Shown piece after piece: positions 15,780 to 24,450 of a stretch of 32,000 nt of DNA. Below the pieces are notes generated by a model. That model had not been told where the DNA came from. It worked only from the letters and a program-made list of their open reading frames with translations, and did no database searches. The stretch's first letter is position 1. Each line of letters begins with the position of its first letter. The DNA is taken from NCBI RefSeq assembly GCF_000015225.1, contig NC_008698.1, forward strand, positions 210,001-242,000, in the 5' to 3' direction. Origin of the DNA: Thermofilum pendens Hrk 5. Its GTDB lineage: Archaea; Thermoproteota; Thermoprotei; Thermofilales; Thermofilaceae. A program made the translations under genes and the position numbers.

Positions 15780-16607
15780 TTACTTCACTTCTACTCCTAG
15801 CTCTTTTAAAAGTTCTTCAAGATCTTTTAGGGAACGCCCGGAAAGCTTTCTGAACTCGTAGTAGTCCAGTAAAGCTTCTTTCATCTTTTCCTTCAACTCC
15901 TCTGAGATTTTACCATAGATTTCCCTGATATCCCTGTACATTTCCTCCTCGGCAAGCAGAACTGCGAGCCGGGGTATACCGATTGTTTGAATCTTGTTCT
16001 CCAGCATCACGAGAGCCATACCGCTCTCGTAGTCAACCTCGTACGAGAGACTTTTCTTTGAAGGCTTCCCGGCGAGCTCCGCCTGGGCCTCCTTCGAGAG
16101 TATTTTGTCCAAACCATACACTGCGACAGCCTTCTCAATCTTCTCCAGGTACTTTTTATCGAGCTTAGCTATGAAGAGAAGGTCATCTTTCGAAAGCGGT
16201 AGCTCGAAGACTCTCCCGGCTAGTATCAGTTGTCCCTTCAAGCCTTTAACCTTCTTCGTAGGCACCCGAATATCGAGGAAAGCGTCGAAGGTAAACACCG
16301 GTATTATCCTCGACCCTCCATCCGGGAAAACGACCTTTACCGCTTCATCCCACAGCTTCGCGGAGACCTCGCCGAGTACGAGGTGTGGGCCGCTCTCCAA
16401 GGTTGGGCACTGGAAGTTCCTGGAAAGGTCTTCGCTCAGTCCCTCGACGAAGCCTAGTACCTCGAACACCAAGAAGGGTATCCACTCGCCGTCTACCTCT
16501 ATTTCGAGCTCAAATTTTTTCAAAACTTGTACCCCGCTATCTTCTAGGTACTTCGCAACCTCTTGCTCGTTCTCCAGGCACTTCTTCCCAATACCTATCC
16601 ATGGCAC
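15780..16607 (-). CDS. Hypothetical protein, 275 aa, K/E-rich, markedly lower G+C than neighbours
   Basis: Uninterrupted ORF on the local coding strand. My hand counts of two 60-nt rows give about 40-42% G+C. No motif recognised; it is not Rpo3/RpoD-like. Confidence 0.65.
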   Translation of the reverse strand: MPWIGIGKKCLENEQEVAKYLEDSGVQVLKKFELEIEVDGEWIPFLVFEVLGFVEGLSEDLSRNFQCPTLESGPHLVLGEVSAKLWDEAVKVVFPDGGSRIIPVFTFDAFLDIRVPTKKVKGLKGQLILAGRVFELPLSKDDLLFIAKLDKKYLEKIEKAVAVYGLDKILSKEAQAELAGKPSKKSLSYEVDYESGMALVMLENKIQTIGIPRLAVLLAEEEMYRDIREIYGKISEELKEKMKEALLDYYEFRKLSGRSLKDLEELLKELGVEVK

Positions 16608-18458: not shown

Positions 18459-19940
18459 TTATTCTTGTGCCCCAGCTGGTTTGATCCTTAGCAGTTCTTC
18501 GACTAGCTTCTTCGCGGCCGGCCTAGCCTCCGACTTGGCAACTGCGAAGCGGTAGAGCGCCTCCCAGAGCTCCGGATCCTCGCCTGCGTGCTCGAAAAGA
18601 GAGTCCTGAGGGATCTCGTAGTAAAGCGTCCCGCCTGACCTGACAACATTCACAGTCCACCCCTCCTTGACGGCTCTCTCGTACCAGCCTGGCGGCGCGC
18701 TATCAAAGGGCATCCTAGCGTATATGTAGGCGTACTTGTCGCCGACGGTTACCAAGGAGAGGTTCAGCATCGCGCCGGCAATGTCAACGTAAAAACCGAG
18801 CTCCTGGTAAGACACCACCTTCTGTCCGGGCCTCCTACCCCTCCTGCCTGGCGCTCCGTAGGCAACATAGAGCCAGTGCCGAATCTTCGCGCACCTAGTG
18901 ACTTTACCTACGAATGCTACGTACTCAGAGGCAAGCTCGACCGCGGCGCGGGCGTTGAAGACAGCGCTTTCCGTCGGCAAGTAGACTATCTCGTTGCCAA
19001 TACTGAAGTATAACTCTCTTATCCTCAGAAAGAGTGTGCGTAGCCCGTCTCCCAGGAAGGCTGTGTGTAGAGCGACCGGGTCCCCCTGTAGCGCCTTGCA
19101 CCTTTCGACGAGTGCACGGAACTCTACACGTTTAACTTCGCCTACAAGCCCTGAAGCCCAGCCCAGCTCCTCCTCGTAGCCGTAGATGCTCACTCCCCAC
19201 TCAATGCTTAGCCTGGTACTGCCGAGTATGCCCGCCGTGATGCCCAAGCGAATATTGTCACTAGGAAAGGCCGCGAGCGTGGCTGGCAACTGCCACGGTT
19301 GCGTTGTGCTGAAACGTACATCGCTGTGGCGCCCATGAGGGGGTGTCACATCCGTTAAGATCCACCCCCTCTGCAGGCTCCGTAGAACGCTGATCGGAGT
19401 ATTCATTAGAACCCTGGGAAACTCTGACTCAACCCAGAAGCCTTTCAACGGGATGCGCACGGACCAGCCGCTAGTGGGCTTGCTCACGACGACGTACCAG
19501 TTCTCCCGCGGAGGGTAGACGCGCCAGTGCCTTCCATGCCTCTCGGCTCTGAGGCCGTCGGCGCCGGCGTCGACGATTGCCTGCAACCTTCCTCTGAGCT
19601 CTACGGCCGCGCTTCCCTCTCTCGGCCTGTTGTCATCGCTTAGCAAGAGGTACTTCCTCGCGTCGATGTCTATGAACCTGTAAAACCTCGGGTAAGCCTC
19701 GTCCGGCACAACAGTCAGCGCGTGCGCCGCAAACCTGGTAAAGTCCCAGTTAATCCCAGTCACCGCGTCGAAGAGGCCCACGTAGTGTATCTCGCCCCTC
19801 TTCTTCTTACCCCTAGACCTCCTCTTATCCTTGATCCTGGTGGCATACAAGCTTAGAGCCGCACGCCTCCAAACCTCCTCCCTAACGCGTTCCTCGACAC
19901 CCTCCCCCGCTCCATCTCCCTTCATCACTACTTCATTCAT
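18459..19940 (-). CDS. Orphan 493-aa protein; weak resemblance to archaeo-eukaryotic primase (AEP/prim-pol) motif I
   Basis: Long uninterrupted ORF with normal, non-repetitive composition and a basic N-terminal patch (KDKRRSRGKKKRGE). RFYRFIDIDARKY (D91/D93) resembles the hhhDhD AEP motif I at the usual distance from the N-terminus. VVVSKPTSGWSVRIPL lies where motif II (SGxGxH) would be but lacks the His. There is no P-loop, no YxDD and no CxxC pairs. GGAGGGG lies 7 nt upstream of the ATG. Confidence 0.75.
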   Translation of the reverse strand: MNEVVMKGDGAGEGVEERVREEVWRRAALSLYATRIKDKRRSRGKKKRGEIHYVGLFDAVTGINWDFTRFAAHALTVVPDEAYPRFYRFIDIDARKYLLLSDDNRPREGSAAVELRGRLQAIVDAGADGLRAERHGRHWRVYPPRENWYVVVSKPTSGWSVRIPLKGFWVESEFPRVLMNTPISVLRSLQRGWILTDVTPPHGRHSDVRFSTTQPWQLPATLAAFPSDNIRLGITAGILGSTRLSIEWGVSIYGYEEELGWASGLVGEVKRVEFRALVERCKALQGDPVALHTAFLGDGLRTLFLRIRELYFSIGNEIVYLPTESAVFNARAAVELASEYVAFVGKVTRCAKIRHWLYVAYGAPGRRGRRPGQKVVSYQELGFYVDIAGAMLNLSLVTVGDKYAYIYARMPFDSAPPGWYERAVKEGWTVNVVRSGGTLYYEIPQDSLFEHAGEDPELWEALYRFAVAKSEARPAAKKLVEELLRIKPAGAQE

Positions 19941-19947
19941 ACCTTAA

Positions 19948-19970
19948 CCCCTCCTTAAATGGTGGAGGGG
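19948..19970 (-). promoter_or_regulatory. Hairpin able to sequester the Shine-Dalgarno sequence of the 493-aa gene
   Basis: Minus-sense RNA reads CCCCUCC-ACCAUUUAA-GGAGGGG-UUAAGGU-AUG. This is a perfect 7-bp stem in which the 3' arm is the SD. A second perfect 7-bp hairpin GCGCCCU-CGC-AGGGCGC (19971-19987) lies directly upstream. Confidence 0.35.
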
Positions 19971-20509
19971 GCGCCCTGCGAGGGCGCGCGCATCAGGGGT
20001 CAGCGTGGCGGGAGGGATGTGTGAGCGTTAAGCGCCGTGAGCGTCCTCGTCGTCGTCTCGGGCGGGCCCGCTGGGGCAAGGCTCAGCCCGCCTCGACCGG
20101 CCCCCCGGGGAAGCCGGCGGCGTTTACTAGGGGCGACCGTCACCCCATGCGGGGCTCATCGTGTCGGGCTTCACAGCCAGCGGCTCAGCCCCTAGGCCGG
20201 TCTCTCCCCGGTTGAGGGAGAGACGCCCCAGCCCGGGGCTGGGGCCCCAGAGCCCCGCCTCCCCCGCCGCCCCCGCTCGTCTAGGCGCGCGGCTCGGGCA
20301 CGGCCCGCCGCCGCGTGCTCCCTCGCACCCGCCGGGCGCGGCCCAGACGCGGGCGTTCACAGGGCCCCGGAGGCGCCAGCCCCGGGCAAGGCCCAGCCGG
20401 GCAGGCGCCCCCTCACGCGCCCCGGGCAAAGCCCAGCCGAGCGCGCTCATCGGACCTCTCCCTCTCCGGGAGGGCCCCCATTGACGGGAGGGATGGGTAG
20501 ACGAGCGGG
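19971..20509. other. GC-rich non-coding block L (candidate structured RNA or long structured leader; strand undetermined)
   Basis: My hand counts of 60-nt rows between 20041 and 20460 give 70-87% G+C. It holds many perfect stems (for example GTCTCTCCC/GGGAGAGAC at 20200-20224) and internal repeats. The only ORFs are overlapping P/R/G/A-rich ones in several frames. Confidence 0.5.
20381..20440. repeat. Two copies of a 20-nt motif CCCGGGCAA(G/A)GCCCAGCCG(G/A) exactly 40 nt apart
   Basis: 20381-20400 cccgggcaaggcccagccgg and 20421-20440 cccgggcaaagcccagccga are 18/20 identical. A looser third copy ggggcaaggctcagccc lies at 20073-20089. Each contains a GGGC-loop-GCCC mini-hairpin. Confidence 0.7.
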
Positions 20510-20527
20510 TAAAAAAAGATATTTTTA
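20510..20527. promoter_or_regulatory. 18-nt AT island TAAAAAAAGATATTTTTA inside the GC-rich block: candidate (possibly bidirectional) BRE/TATA promoter
   Basis: It contains a single G in 18 nt and is flanked on both sides by sequence above 75% G+C. It is quasi-palindromic (A-run GATAT T-run). On the plus strand its T5 could alternatively act as a terminator. Confidence 0.35.
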
Positions 20528-20689
20528 GCGGCGGGGAGGGGCAGGGTTTCTCCCCAAGGCCTAGTCTTCGCTTGCGCCTCGGCCCCCTCCTCCCCCGTCC
20601 TCCCGCGGCCGGGCTTCTGGGGGTCATTGTCATCTTGGGCCGCGGGGTTCACCTGTTGAGCGCCTCTCCCGGGGGCTTTGCCTGTGTCG

Positions 20690-20706
20690 CCCCCGGGGGG
20701 GGGGGG
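20690..20706. repeat. Homopolymer tract C5 G12
   Basis: Read directly: gtcgc ccccc gggggggggggg tgac. Confidence 0.9.
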
Positions 20707-20791
20707 TGACGCGGCTTCACTTTTCGGCCGCGAGCCCGATTGCTATGTTAATAGTGGATTTCTGGGATTTATTGCCTGCGCTTGTAAACGT

Positions 20792-20812
20792 GGGAGCTTT
20801 CTCCCGTTTTTT
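20792..20812 (+). terminator. Hairpin plus T6 terminator-like element
   Basis: The sequence is GGGAG cttt CTCCC g TTTTTT. Oligo-T is the archaeal termination signal. Confidence 0.4.
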
Positions 20813-20851
20813 CCGCGTTGAAAGCCCGGTGGTAAAGAGGGTTGACCGAGC

Positions 20852-21082
20852 GTGAGTGACCCGAGGGTTATCGTTAGAACGATAGGCGCGTTGTCGAGGC
20901 TTCTGGCGAGCACTCTTAGGCGTGACGGGCTGTACGAGGCGCGCCTCGTCGAAGCGCTGGACGCGATCGAGGAGTTCCTAGCCTCAGTGCGCGGCGCGAC
21001 CACGCAGGTCGAGGAGGACGAAGAGCTGGCAAGAGAGCTAGAAGAGGGCATCGAGGAGCTCAGGGAGCTAGGGCTAGCGTAA
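20852..21082 (+). CDS. Small acidic, predicted all-helical protein (76 aa), unknown function
   Basis: It has a GTG start with AGAGGG about 12 nt upstream. The composition looks coding (LVEALDAIEEFLASVRG...EEDEELARELEEGIEELRELG). It is followed 8 nt later by a T-run terminator. The antisense 102-aa ORF is Ser-rich and low complexity. Confidence 0.45.
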   Translation: MSDPRVIVRTIGALSRLLASTLRRDGLYEARLVEALDAIEEFLASVRGATTQVEEDEELARELEEGIEELRELGLA

Positions 21083-21133: not shown

Positions 21134-21236
21134 TGGCGCCGGGGCCGGGATTTGAACCCGGGCACCCTTAACGGGTAGTGGATCTCAACTGTGGCTTATG
21201 AGTGTCCACCGCCTTAGTCCACTCGGCCACCCCGGC
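21134..21236 (-). tRNA. tRNA-Ser (anticodon UGA) with encoded CCA and a 15-nt intron at non-canonical position 32/33
   Basis: I folded it by hand. The acceptor stem is GCCGGGG/CCCCGGC, with G73 and then CCA. The D-arm is GCCG...AGGC. The anticodon stem is GUGGA/UCCAC. The long variable arm is UACCCGUUAAGGGUGC (class II). The T-arm is CCGGG-UUCAAAU-CCCGG. Removing ACUCAUAAGCCACAG (plus-strand 21189-21203) gives the loop C-U-UGA-G-A. The intron CUCA pairs with exon UGAG as a 4-bp BHB-like central helix, and both cuts fall 1 nt 5' of it. Confidence 0.85.
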
Positions 21237-23136: not shown

Positions 23137-24450
23137 ATGAGCTTCAGCTACGACGGTTACGCGCGTCCTAGGCGCATAATACTGGATGAGCGCAAGCTTA
23201 GTAGCGAGTACGTTCCGCTGAAGCTTCCTCACAGGGCGGAGCAGATAGCGGAAACTCTCAGGGTTATGCAGGACGTTATTAGGGGTCAGAAGGACGTTCT
23301 CCGCACGATTATCTACGCTGGGCAGGCGGGCACCGGGAAAACTGCGGTTGCAAGGACCATTGGTAGGGAGGTTAAGGATAAGGCCGCTAAGGGAAAGATT
23401 CCTCCCATACTCGTATCCTACGTGAACGCCCAAGAGTACCGAACGAAGTTCCAGGTTTTCAGGAAGATTGGAAGCGACTGCGGACTCGATATCCCCCGGA
23501 GGGGTTTCTCCTCTCAGGAGCTGGCAGAGTATGTGTTCGGGTTTATAAGCAGGCGCGAGAACAATGCTCTAATAATCCTAGACGAGGCAGACATTCTCGC
23601 TAAGCAGAAGGACGGCAACGAGCTCTTCTACGTTTTCTCCCGCGTCAGGGAAGTCCTACCCGAAGTCCAGCTAGGCTTAGGTTTGATCGTTATCTTCAGG
23701 CAACTGGACGAAAGCCTAGCCTACTTAGACAAAGCAGTTGTAAGCTCGCTTTCAGGGCGCGTAGTGAGGTTTAACCCTTACACTTCCCAGCAACTCCAGG
23801 ACATCCTCTGGGCGCGTATACGCGACGAAGGAGCTATCCGCGAGGAGGCGGTCTCGGAGGAGATCATAGAGATGATAGCGGACACGGTTGGCTACAACCC
23901 CGATACGAAGAGCGGGATTGGGGACGCTAGGATGGCGATCAAGGTTCTATACTACTCTGCGCTTAGAGCTGAAGGGGAGGAAAGAGAGACGATACTACCC
24001 GAAGACGTGCGTTACGTGGTGAACCAGGGCGTACTACCCTCTTACATCGACGAAGAAACCGTGACTAGGCTCCCGCTACACGAGAAGCTACTGCTACTCG
24101 CTATTACGGAGCTCTTACTACTCGAAAGGGAAAAAGCCTACGTGAACATGGGGGAGGTAGTGATACAATATGAAGACGTGTGCAATAAGTTCGGAGAGAA
24201 ACCGTTAAGGTACACTAGAATCTGGGAGAAAGTCCAGTTCCTGAAGAAAATGGGTCTCGTGGATACTAGGACGGGGCGTGGAGAGACGCGCGGCAGGACG
24301 ACGATGATCACCTTCCCGGGTCTACCCGCGAACAGCGTAGTGGGAATAAACAGAATCCCATTAGACCTCCTAGAGAAAATACTGAGAGATTCCATAGAGA
24401 AGGAGCTGAGCTCTCGGGGAGAGGAGAGGGGCGAAGAGCTTACTGAGTAG
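23137..24450 (+). CDS. cdc6: Orc1/Cdc6 replication initiator (AAA+ plus winged helix)
   Basis: The N-terminus LDERKLSSEYVP..LPHRAEQIAETL is followed by Walker A GQAGTGKT, Walker B LIILDEADIL, and a C-terminal winged helix (LPLHEKLLLLAI...KMGLVDTR). Confidence 0.92.
   Translation: MSFSYDGYARPRRIILDERKLSSEYVPLKLPHRAEQIAETLRVMQDVIRGQKDVLRTIIYAGQAGTGKTAVARTIGREVKDKAAKGKIPPILVSYVNAQEYRTKFQVFRKIGSDCGLDIPRRGFSSQELAEYVFGFISRRENNALIILDEADILAKQKDGNELFYVFSRVREVLPEVQLGLGLIVIFRQLDESLAYLDKAVVSSLSGRVVRFNPYTSQQLQDILWARIRDEGAIREEAVSEEIIEMIADTVGYNPDTKSGIGDARMAIKVLYYSALRAEGEERETILPEDVRYVVNQGVLPSYIDEETVTRLPLHEKLLLLAITELLLLEREKAYVNMGEVVIQYEDVCNKFGEKPLRYTRIWEKVQFLKKMGLVDTRTGRGETRGRTTMITFPGLPANSVVGINRIPLDLLEKILRDSIEKELSSRGEERGEELTE

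What the first reader, a model, noticed from the sequence alone, without database searches (positions are those of the whole stretch)
19941..20812. About 0.8 kb of extremely GC-rich, hairpin- and repeat-dense non-coding DNA: candidate large structured RNA(s) of no family I can recognise
My hand counts of consecutive 60-nt rows from 20041 to 20460 give 78, 73, 70, 85, 87, 82 and 77% G+C. The comparison values are 53% for row 1-60 and about 40-42% in the gene at 15780-16607. All ORFs offered by the six-frame track here overlap one another in several frames and translate to P/R/G/A low-complexity strings, so coding is unlikely. The block is full of perfect local stems. Examples are GTCTCTCCC-cggttga-GGGAGAGAC (20200-20224), GCGCCCT-gcg-AGGGCGC (19971-19987), GCCCCAG...CTGGGGC (20225-20245) and GGGGAG...CTCCCC (20534-20555). 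In hyperthermophiles, local G+C enrichment over the genomic background is the established signature of structured RNA genes; it is the principle behind GC-content ncRNA screens in such archaea. I looked for RNase P (GAGGAAAGUCC, ACAGAA) and SRP helix-8 (GGAAG.AGCAGCC) signatures on both strands and did not see them. Together with the co-located orphan protein, this is the most plausible place in the window for an undescribed RNA or RNA-protein system.
Basis: partly seen in the sequence, partly recalled or inferred. Interest (0 to 1): 0.8.

Follow-up and report, generated by a model that had tools for sequence, protein, structure and literature searches.

The report
GC-rich structured RNA module beside endonuclease-like genes
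The very GC-rich stretch is a real, non-coding, roughly 650-base module repeated in the archaeon Thermofilum pendens, always just upstream of a gene from a species-specific family of homing-endonuclease-like proteins; one of its long-range helices co-varies between copies, so it is probably an undescribed structured RNA of unknown function.

Summary
Window 20041-20460 is 70-87% G+C against 54.5% for the window, matches no Rfam family and has no conserved reading frame.

The window is Thermofilum pendens. The block is an optional insertion of about 830 nt between two divergent genes, which both belong to multi-copy families found almost only in T. pendens:
- a 76-aa gene;
- a 493-aa gene whose predicted fold weakly but consistently resembles LAGLIDADG homing endonucleases.

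About 650 nt (20006-20652) recur, in the same orientation, upstream of two other family members: a 22%-identical paralogue (locus L003) and Tpen_0646. Four other cassettes lack the block.

A helix joining 20498-20509 to 20272-20283, 214 nt apart, keeps pairing through four double substitutions in L003 and two more in the deduced Tpen_0646 copy. Column shuffles never reached this (0 of 200). The rest of the core is nearly invariant, so it gives no test.

Best reading: a new structured RNA module, probably read in the sense of the endonuclease-like gene. Transcription, strand and function are inferred, not shown. Interest is moderate to high, and the known distribution is one species.

The parts
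20006..20652 (-). GC-rich module shared between copies (74% G+C; the core 20023-20481 is 78%).
   Evidence: Homologous to L003 5278-5935: 79% identity over 616 nt, above 93% in the centre. Also matches the region upstream of Tpen_0646, read from that protein's N-terminal extension (tblastn E = 4e-42, with frame shifts). Composition.
20498..20509 (-). Helix P1, 5' arm in gene sense (CCCGCUCGUCUA, read 20509 to 20498).
   Evidence: Pairs with 20272-20283. There are four compensatory double changes in L003 and two more in the deduced Tpen_0646 copy, with none incompatible. No column shuffle reached this (0 of 200).
20272..20283 (-). Helix P1, 3' arm in gene sense (UAGACGAGCGGG).
   Evidence: (I6). 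Single-sequence folding predicts it as the closing helix in both copies.
20284..20497 (-). Multi-hairpin domain of 214 nt enclosed by P1. It holds four slots for the mini-hairpin CUGGGC-NNN-GCCCGG (20422-20436, 20382-20396, 20332-20346, and a weaker one at 20293-20307), spaced 40/50/40 nt.
   Evidence: (three exact copies per locus, 0.31 expected). In slots 3 and 4 the loops differ between copies while the stems are kept; slot 2 is identical. Slot 1 in L003 keeps its pairing through one double and two wobble changes (columns 75-89).
20200..20245 (-). Two adjacent strong hairpins: GUCUCUCCCU-caacc-GGGGAGAGAC (20200-20224) and GCCCCAGCC-ccg-GGCUGGGGC (20225-20245).
   Evidence: The arms are identical in L003, where the only change is a 1-nt deletion in a loop. 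The Tpen_0646 codons are compatible with the arms and differ only in the loop (my own position-by-position reading of the P0005 codons against L003; alignment).
20155..20174 (-). Conserved 20-mer GUGAAGCCCGACACGAUGAG. Its first 8 bases are predicted unpaired; the rest is partly paired.
   Evidence: Identical in the window and L003, and encoded as VKPDTMS in the Tpen_0646 extension. Public collections gave chance matches only.
20510..20528 (.). AT-rich island inside the block. It reads UAAAAAUAUCUUUUUUU in gene sense (T7 run = 20511-20517) and has a T5 run at 20522-20526 in plus sense. It could be a promoter, a terminator or a linker.
   Evidence: Conserved in all three copies. Its role is inferred from the sequence only.
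20529..20652 (-). Distal conserved part of the module (71.5% G+C), with the hairpin GGGGAG...CUCCCC at 20533-20555.
   Evidence: No covariation was found here. An 79-aa ORF over 20413-20652 is annotated in strain Hrk 5 as hypothetical protein ABL77671.1.
20653..20851 (.). Part of the insertion specific to this locus (59% G+C). It holds the hairpin 20663-20702, a G12 run at 20695-20706, T-runs at 20722-20725 and 20808-20813, and AT-rich promoter-like stretches ahead of the 76-aa gene.
   Evidence: Not homologous to L003, and absent from the empty cassettes.
20006..20022 (.). 17-nt direct repeat TGGCGGGAGGGATGTGT. Its second copy lies at 20482-20498, and together they flank the 78% G+C core. Short microhomology also sits at the insertion junctions: GTGG at 20005-20008 and GGTGGT at 20828-20833, where the two closest empty cassettes (L001, L006) carry TGGTGG.
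   Evidence: (D8).
19941..20005 (.). Cassette core shared by filled and empty copies: the TATA-like CCTTAAATGG (19953-19962) and the palindrome GCGCCCT-gcg-AGGGCGC (19971-19987).
   Evidence: Present in L001, L002 and L006. In L003 the TATA-like box is lost.
18459..19940 (-). 493-aa gene of a multi-copy family confined largely to T. pendens, with a LAGLIDADG-like fold. The true start is probably the second ATG, at 19925.
   Evidence: One search found 15 paralogues, all from T. pendens. One search found remote relatives, and one search showed those looked up are metagenomic or from T. pendens, plus one Thermoproteaceae MAG. AlphaFold2 model with pLDDT 86.9. The top Foldseek hits are LAGLIDADG endonucleases in two libraries, with E about 1e-3. 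D197 and D298-G299 are nearly invariant.
20852..21082 (+). 76-aa helical protein gene, the divergent partner in the cassette. It is also a multi-copy family confined to T. pendens.
   Evidence: One search found 17 relatives. No Pfam match.

Best explanation
The block is a repeated, non-coding module of about 650 nt that most likely works as a highly structured RNA.

Anatomy in gene sense (minus strand):
- a distal segment of about 120 nt;
- an A/U-rich island;
- a 214-nt domain of small hairpins closed by the long-range helix P1;
- about 270 nt holding two strong hairpins and a conserved 20-mer.

The module sits immediately 5' of, and in the same orientation as, genes of a LAGLIDADG-like paralogue family. 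I think it is transcribed in that sense, either as a long structured leader or as a separate RNA. I think it acts as the RNA partner or regulator of this selfish-looking gene family, and that it spreads between paralogous cassettes by recombination.

Shown: it is repeated, non-coding and optional, its linkage and orientation are fixed, and one helix co-varies.
Inferred: that it is transcribed, which strand is read, and what it does.
For: 1. Extreme local G+C (78%) next to genes of 45-58% G+C in a hyperthermophile, at both loci for which DNA is held.
2. Three copies lie upstream of family members that share as little as 22% protein identity, yet the block is 79% to over 93% identical. It is therefore kept or exchanged independently of the gene.
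3. Helix P1 keeps 9-12 bp through six double substitutions at five of its pair positions across three copies, with 0 of 200 column shuffles matching this.
4. Loops vary in slots 3 and 4, or carry an indel, while stems stay fixed in the mini-hairpins and in 20200-20224. Slot 1 is maintained by one double and two wobble changes that pair only in gene sense.
5. The gene-sense strand folds 17-33 kcal/mol more stably than the antisense strand in both copies, and P1 is the predicted closing helix in both.
6. Orientation relative to the endonuclease-like gene is conserved while the other flank differs (a 76-aa gene here, an unrelated 458-aa gene in L003).
7. In L003 the gene's proximal TATA-like box is lost, so any expression would have to come through the block (inference).
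Against: - There are no transcript data.
- Only one helix can be tested. Elsewhere the core is nearly invariant, and 28-35 MFE pairs predicted from one copy are broken in the other against 15-18 kept, alike on both strands.
- The z-scores do not separate the strands cleanly: -2.3 to -3.3 in gene sense against -1.9 to -2.9 in antisense.
- The 5' arm of P1 lies directly after a T7/T8 run. An archaeal transcript coming from upstream could terminate there, and a promoter in the AT island would start the RNA downstream of that arm.
- Four cassettes work without the block.
- One of the three copies is known only from back-translated codons.
Confidence: 0.45

Rival explanations
1. It is a structured RNA read on the plus strand, antisense to the endonuclease-like gene. 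It would start from the shared TATA-like box at 19953-19962, run through the GC core, and end at the T5 run (20522-20526) just after the 3' arm of P1. In effect it would be an RNA gene inserted into the 5' leader of the 76-aa gene.
For: P1 is Watson-Crick in both senses. In the window a T5 run follows P1 by 12 nt in plus sense. In empty cassettes the same TATA-like box lies 55 nt upstream of the 76-aa gene start. The z-score of the L003 P1 domain is slightly better in antisense (-2.87 against -2.45).
Against: The plus strand is 17-33 kcal/mol less stable in every comparison. The wobble pairs in the mini-hairpins and in the L003 extension of P1 become A-C mismatches on this strand. L003 has neither the TATA-like box nor the 76-aa gene, and only a T3 run after P1.
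Confidence: 0.2
2. It is a DNA-level element with no RNA role. It could be a non-autonomous mobile insertion (MITE-like or PATE-like, with hairpins used in single-stranded DNA), or a recombination-promoting sequence that drives gene conversion among the paralogous cassettes.
For: Presence or absence varies at otherwise homologous sites, with short junction microhomology and a 17-nt internal direct repeat. The paralogues are 63-80% identical, and by my reading of alignment A1 their C-termini look mosaic. The block is far more similar between loci than the adjacent genes are.
Against: There are no terminal inverted repeats at the insertion boundaries. The block always sits at the same position and in the same orientation relative to one gene family, not scattered. 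Nothing similar was found in the phage, plasmid, viral, genome or metagenome collections. P1 lies inside a larger conserved unit and differs between copies, unlike transposon ends recognised by a single transposase.
Confidence: 0.15
3. It is a functionless by-product: a spacer driven to high G+C by GC-biased gene conversion among repeated cassettes.
For: It lies in a multi-copy context with signs of exchange between copies.
Against: The adjacent repeated genes are not GC-enriched; the gene in L003 is 45.5% G+C. Compensatory changes in P1 and conserved stems with variable loops indicate selection on pairing.
Confidence: 0.07
4. It is a decayed or mis-annotated protein-coding sequence. Strain Hrk 5 annotates a 79-aa ORF here and a 215-aa N-terminal extension on Tpen_0646.
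For: ABL77671.1 is exactly the ORF at 20413-20652. Tpen_0646 is annotated with its start inside its own copy of the block.
Against: Copies differ by frame-shifting indels and by stops (a TGA in L003 where the Tpen_0646 extension has an Arg codon, most parsimoniously CGA; and my own reading of the codons). The translations are low-complexity P/R/G/A strings with no homologues. There are 4-9 stops in every frame.
Confidence: 0.02

Closest known systems
HEARO RNA / omega-RNA with IscB ('HNH Endonuclease-Associated RNA and ORF'). This comparison is from my own knowledge and was not tested with a tool.
   Same: A large structured non-coding RNA lies directly 5' of an endonuclease-type ORF, in the same orientation, in several copies per genome, and was first noticed only as an orphan motif.
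   Different: The protein here is LAGLIDADG-like, not RuvC/HNH. The RNA is optional (three of seven cassettes have it). No guide segment or transposon ends were identified. Rfam gives no hit.
Crenarchaeal bulge-helix-bulge introns of rRNA genes that carry LAGLIDADG ORFs (for example I-DmoI and I-Tsp061I).
   Same: A G+C-rich structured RNA is joined to a LAGLIDADG-type ORF in a hyperthermophilic crenarchaeon. I-Tsp061I is among the Foldseek matches (rank 42).
   Different: The block is not inside an rRNA or tRNA gene; it lies between protein genes. The ORF is outside the block and is 470-500 aa long. No bulge-helix-bulge motif was found by inspection. Cassettes exist with the ORF but without the RNA.
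paREP repeated gene families of Pyrobaculum (paREP2b is called a putative transposon in PMC3558965).
   Same: Lineage-specific, multi-copy, fast-diverging gene families in Thermoproteales, linked to genome rearrangements.
   Different: The only link is a sub-threshold PaRep2b match on one remote relative (E = 0.0035, 16.4 bits against a cut-off of 20.4). I know of no GC-rich RNA module described for paREP families.
GC-rich ncRNAs found by base-composition screens in hyperthermophiles (the Hgc RNAs). From my own knowledge.
   Same: The same detection principle applies: local G+C well above the genomic background.
   Different: There is no sequence or structure match to any Rfam family. This block is much larger, repeated, and linked to a gene.
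MITE / PATE non-autonomous insertion elements.
   Same: A short non-coding insertion, present or absent at homologous sites, rich in hairpins.
   Different: It has no terminal inverted repeats, and its position and orientation relative to one gene family are fixed. An internal helix also co-varies between copies.

Membership tests
Any Rfam 15 family (including RNase P, SRP, group I and II introns, C/D and H/ACA sRNAs) | Covariance-model score at or above the family's gathering threshold | tested here: not met
   No family reaches its gathering score in the block. The block's best permissive hits have E of about 6 in the window and 0.49 in L003, all far below threshold.
Archaeal bulge-helix-bulge intron with a homing-endonuclease ORF | Inserted in a host RNA gene (rRNA or tRNA) or in a coding sequence | tested here: not met
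   It lies between the starts of two divergent protein genes. Empty cassettes show an intergenic promoter region at that site.
Archaeal bulge-helix-bulge intron with a homing-endonuclease ORF | A bulge-helix-bulge motif formed by the two boundaries | tested here: inconclusive
   No complementarity between the block boundaries appears in the repeat scans. No dedicated search for the motif was run.
Archaeal bulge-helix-bulge intron with a homing-endonuclease ORF | The endonuclease ORF lies inside the intron | tested here: not met
   The ORF lies outside the optional block and is present in cassettes without it.
LAGLIDADG homing endonucleases (for the neighbouring 493-aa protein) | Match to the Pfam LAGLIDADG profiles or to solved structures by sequence | tested here: not met
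   No Pfam family matches. A profile search against PDB sequences finds no endonuclease.
LAGLIDADG homing endonucleases (for the neighbouring 493-aa protein) | An alpha-beta-beta-alpha-beta-beta-alpha fold with two motif helices that end in conserved acidic residues | tested here: inconclusive
   Nearly all top Foldseek hits are LAGLIDADG enzymes in both PDB and BFVD, but they are weak: E from 1.6e-3 to 4e-3, TM-score 0.2-0.45. Helices 183-194 (motif LQRGWILTD) and 288-298 (motif AFLGDG) lie next to the nearly invariant residues D197 and D298-G299.
Endonuclease-associated guide or scaffold RNA (HEARO / omega-RNA type) | RNA adjacent to the nuclease ORF, co-oriented, multi-copy | tested here: met
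   Three copies, each about 65-70 nt upstream of a family member and in the same orientation.
Endonuclease-associated guide or scaffold RNA (HEARO / omega-RNA type) | The RNA always accompanies the nuclease, which is of the IscB/TnpB type | tested here: not met
   Four cassettes lack the block. The protein has no RuvC or HNH match.
MITE or insertion-sequence-derived element | Terminal inverted repeats and target-site duplication at the insertion boundaries | tested here: not met
   No inverted repeats lie at about 20006 and 20835. Only 4-6 nt of microhomology (GTGG / GGTGGT) is present.
Structured RNA in general | Base pairs maintained by compensatory substitutions | tested here: met
   Met for helix P1 only: six double changes across three copies, with 0 of 200 column shuffles reaching four. 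Other helices are invariant or are not supported.
Structured RNA in general | Evidence of transcription and defined RNA ends | not testable with these tools
   No T. pendens transcript data were accessible. Literature searches found nothing on these loci.

The most novel reading that the evidence does not exclude
The module is the RNA subunit of a new ribonucleoprotein built on a LAGLIDADG-like protein. In this reading the RNA would guide, scaffold or template the endonuclease-like protein's action on the paralogous cassettes, for example in RNA-directed cleavage, homing or gene conversion. That would be an archaeal counterpart of HEARO/omega-RNA with IscB, built on a nuclease fold that has so far been known to recognise DNA through protein contacts only.
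Probability: 0.07. Interest if true: 0.9.

Novelty: new variant of a known kind. Interest (0 to 1): 0.6.

Why it matters
If confirmed, this adds a large RNA family (about 0.5-0.65 kb) with no described relatives. It comes from a poorly studied hyperthermophilic archaeon and has a clear genomic partner: an expanded, fast-diverging family of homing-endonuclease-like genes.

Large orphan RNAs found next to nuclease genes have proved mechanistically important before. HEARO, for example, turned out to be the guide RNA of IscB.

Even on the modest reading (a structured leader or regulator of a selfish gene family), the locus offers three things:
- a natural set of cassettes with and without the block, in which its function can be tested;
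- a likely explanation for mis-annotated ORFs in the Hrk 5 genome (ABL77671.1 and the 708-aa form of Tpen_0646);
- a first fold-level clue to what a T. pendens 'orphan' family of at least 15 members might be.

Tried and rejected
Known RNA families. Rfam scans at gathering and at permissive thresholds on the window and on L003 found only the neighbouring tRNA.

Coding sequence. A search of the 5.8-billion-protein database with the longest ORF in the block found nothing.

More copies from public DNA:
- Protein-profile scans of genome contigs and viral contigs found nothing.
- Exact 20- and 21-mers from the block, run against genome, metagenome and viral contigs, gave chance hits only.
- T. pendens itself appears to be missing from those collections.
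- Exact-protein look-ups failed for P0001, P0002, P0003, P0005, P0017 and P0033. They worked for P0020, P0021, P0026, P0035, P0036 and P0098, which supplied one more filled copy (L003) and three empty cassettes for which DNA is held.
- BLAST against the phage and plasmid collections found nothing.

Other checks:
- A G-quadruplex motif at 20245-20274 on the minus strand is not significant, because 28% of shuffles also contain one.
- A test for G-U against A-C asymmetry at the ends of stems had too few counts to be useful.
- Global MFE conservation between copies was not supported on either strand.
- The upstream region of a remote homologue in a Thermoproteaceae MAG (L012) shows no comparable block.
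- C/D-box, H/ACA, K-turn and bulge-helix-bulge readings were considered by eye and dropped for lack of the defining boxes.
Full report
**1.

The richest 400-nt window starts at 20041 with 79.2%. The window as a whole has 54.5% (sd 4.1), and no 400-nt window outside 19600-21000 exceeds 61.3%. The four quoted stems are present at their coordinates.

The 580 nt from 19941 to 20520 fold better than dinucleotide shuffles: z = -3.26 on the minus strand and -2.01 on the plus strand.

Rfam 15 gives nothing at gathering thresholds. In a permissive scan, only the neighbouring tRNA at 21137-21236 scores meaningfully.

The overlapping ORFs translate to P/R/G/A strings. The longest has no homologue among 5.8 billion proteins, and every frame carries 4-9 stops.

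**2. Where the block sits**

The flanking 493-aa ORF (18459-19940, minus strand) matches only Thermofilum pendens proteins: 15 paralogues of 39-80% identity. The 76-aa ORF on the other side (20852-21082, plus strand) likewise has 17 relatives, almost all from T. pendens. Neither protein has a Pfam match. The two genes form a divergent cassette that is repeated around the genome.

Further out lie the genes for ribosomal proteins S13, S4 and S11, an enolase-superfamily gene and a cdc6/orc1 gene.

**3. The block is optional**

Three cassettes for which DNA could be fetched have only about 70-95 nt between the two start codons:
- L001, an ENA metagenome contig;
- L002, a Logan contig;
- L006 9931-10000, from assembly GCA_054696865.1.

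The annotated N-terminal extension of Tpen_0892 shows the same short arrangement.

All of these share CCTTAWATGGTGGAGGGGGCGCCCTGCGAGGGCGC with window 19953-19987.

Relative to these 'empty' copies, the window carries an insertion of about 830 nt, from roughly 20006 to 20835. The junctions show only short microhomology: GTGG on the left and GGTGGT on the right, where L001 and L006 have TGGTGG. There are no terminal inverted repeats.

**4. The block is repeated and linked to one gene family**

The 708-aa annotation of Tpen_0646 starts inside a homologous block. Its first 215 residues align to window 20628 down to 19948, in shifting frames (tblastn E = 4e-42).

A second DNA copy was found upstream of P0035 (L003 5278-5935). 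P0035 is a distant paralogue recovered by a profile search. It shares about 22% identity with the window protein, and its gene is only 45.5% G+C. Even so, the two blocks are 79% identical over 616 nt and more than 93% identical in the central part of the alignment, roughly 360 columns.

Homology covers window 20006-20652 and continues through the palindrome to the start codon. Window 20653-20851 is not shared.

In L003 the far flank is an unrelated 458-aa gene, not the 76-aa gene. What stays constant is the position about 65-70 nt upstream of, and in the same orientation as, a gene of the 493-aa family.

The copies differ by indels of 1, 2, 4 and 7 nt. L003 also has a TGA where the Tpen_0646 extension reads Arg, most parsimoniously CGA (my reading of the codons; alignment). 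The block is therefore not coding. Strain Hrk 5 nevertheless annotates an ORF inside it: ABL77671.1 is exactly the translation of 20413-20652.

**5. What the neighbouring protein is**

With 15 paralogues alone, AlphaFold2 gave a poor model (pLDDT 49). Adding 25 remote relatives from the profile search (with three of the paralogues dropped) raised it to pLDDT 86.9 and pTM 0.72.

Foldseek returned LAGLIDADG homing endonucleases as nearly all of its top hits, for both models and in both the PDB and BFVD libraries. Examples are I-OnuI, I-SceI, I-Tsp061I and viral LAGLIDADG proteins. The scores are weak, however: best E between 1.6e-3 and 4e-3, and TM-scores of 0.2-0.45.

Two helices, at 183-194 (motif LQRGWILTD) and 288-298 (motif AFLGDG), lie next to residues that are nearly invariant across the wider family: D197, and D298 with G299.

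No Pfam or PDB match exists at the sequence level. One remote relative has a sub-threshold PaRep2b hit. I therefore call the family 'LAGLIDADG-like' and treat that as a lead, not as proven membership.

**6. Evidence for RNA-type structure**

Most of the core is identical between copies and so says nothing either way. MFE pairs predicted from one copy are broken in the other more often than they are kept (28-35 against 15-18), on both strands alike.

One helix does vary, and it co-varies. I call it P1.
- In the window, CCCGCTCGTCTA (20509 down to 20498, gene sense) pairs with TAGACGAGCGGG (20283 down to 20272), 214 nt away.
- In L003 the arms are (TTT)GTCCGCCCA and TGGGCGGAC(GGG). That makes four double substitutions within nine Watson-Crick pairs, plus three U-G pairs that exist only in gene sense.
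- Back-translating Tpen_0646 gives SNMGNGTNWSNA and TNGAYACNMGNG. Every determined position is complementary, and two further pairs have changed on both sides (T-A to G-C, and C-G to T-A).

In 200 column shuffles of the alignment, no helix of six or more pairs had more than two compensatory pairs with Watson-Crick pairing only, or more than three when G-U was allowed. The observed number is four. One caveat applies: shuffling columns does not preserve the clustering of substitutions.

Single-sequence folding picks P1 as the closing helix of the 214-nt domain in both copies.

Inside that domain lie four slots for the mini-hairpin CUGGGC-NNN-GCCCGG, spaced 40, 50 and 40 nt apart. There are three exact copies per locus, against 0.31 expected. 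In slots 3 and 4 the loops differ between copies while the stems are kept; slot 2 is identical. Slot 1 in L003 keeps its pairing through one double change and two wobble changes.

The hairpin at 20200-20224 differs between the window and L003 only by a 1-nt loop indel. My reading of the Tpen_0646 codons places its differences in the loop as well.

**7. Strand and transcription (inference only)**

In every comparison the gene-sense strand is the more stable:
- -348 against -331 kcal/mol for the whole window block;
- -354 against -322 kcal/mol for the whole L003 block;
- -160 against -142 kcal/mol for the window P1 domain;
- -160 against -140 kcal/mol for the L003 P1 domain.

The wobble pairs described above exist only in gene sense. 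Orientation relative to the downstream gene is conserved. L003 has also lost the proximal TATA-like box, so any expression of that gene would have to pass through the block.

Against the gene-sense reading, the 5' arm of P1 follows a T7/T8 run directly. Such a run could terminate a transcript coming from upstream. A promoter within the AT island would start the RNA too late to include that arm.

A plus-strand RNA remains a live rival. It would run from the shared TATA-like box to the T5 run at 20522-20526.

**8. Comparison with known systems**

The closest analogies are:
- HEARO/omega-RNA with IscB, a large RNA lying 5' of an endonuclease ORF and present in several copies per genome;
- crenarchaeal rRNA introns that carry LAGLIDADG ORFs.

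The block fails defining features of both. It is optional, it lies outside any host RNA gene, the ORF is outside the block, and no bulge-helix-bulge motif was found.

A MITE or PATE reading fails for lack of terminal repeats, and because the position and orientation are fixed. GC-biased conversion does not explain the compensatory changes, nor the 45% G+C gene next door.

Literature searches found nothing on these loci. paREP families are described only as repeated, possibly mobile genes (PMC3558965).

**9. Verdict**

This is a real and previously undescribed non-coding module. It has one covariation-supported long-range helix and a fixed association with an endonuclease-like paralogue family.
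- Probability that it functions as a structured RNA on either strand: about 0.65.
- Probability of the specific gene-sense leader or partner model: about 0.45.

Its function is unknown, and so far it is known from a single species.

Noticed in passing
window 21137-21236 (-): A tRNA gene with a long variable arm and a 15-nt insertion in the anticodon loop. ARAGORN missed it, and so did the whole-window Rfam scan at gathering thresholds, although it scores 44.6 bits against a cut-off of 29 in a local scan. Read by eye, removing ACTCATAAGCCACAG leaves the loop CUUGAGA, which would make it tRNA-Ser(UGA) with an intron at the non-canonical position 32/33.
   Followed up: partly
window 20695-20706: A G12 homopolymer forms the 3' arm of the hairpin 20663-20702, in the locus-specific part of the insertion and about 150 nt upstream of the 76-aa gene. 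It could be a slippage-prone tract.
   Followed up: no
window 23137-24450 (+): A Cdc6/Orc1 gene lies 2.3 kb from the block. A replication origin may be nearby. The GC block itself is not origin-like, and its L003 copy is not next to a cdc6 gene.
   Followed up: no
window 15780-16607 (-) and L003 6001-7398 (+): Genes with unusually low G+C. The first is an orphan 275-aa ORF with no Pfam match, about 44-49% G+C in the 300-nt profile. The second is the distant paralogue P0035, at 45.5%. Both sit in a genome of 54-55% G+C, which may point to foreign or recently acquired DNA.
   Followed up: no
alignment A1 (proteins P0001-P0015): The 493-aa paralogues look mosaic. The P0013-P0015 subgroup is only 28-44% identical to the rest overall, yet shares the C-terminal 100 or so residues almost exactly with the P0001-P0004 subgroup. 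This suggests recombination between cassettes.
   Followed up: partly
Hrk 5 annotations ABL77671.1 (= window 20413-20652, minus strand), Tpen_0646 (708 aa) and Tpen_0892 (556 aa): These are likely annotation artefacts: an ORF called inside the non-coding block, and two N-terminal extensions that read through the block or through the antisense strand of the 76-aa gene.
   Followed up: yes
L003 5165-5200: A tandem direct repeat, TTCGTTTTATAACT twice, lies in the AT-rich region between the unrelated 458-aa gene and the distal end of the block.
   Followed up: no
L011 (CM138769.1 448137-468871): A region with many short or absent gene calls, a truncated 244-aa family member (P0036) and a PaREP1-domain gene. 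It may be a decaying island of repeated elements. It holds no copy of the GC block.
   Followed up: partly
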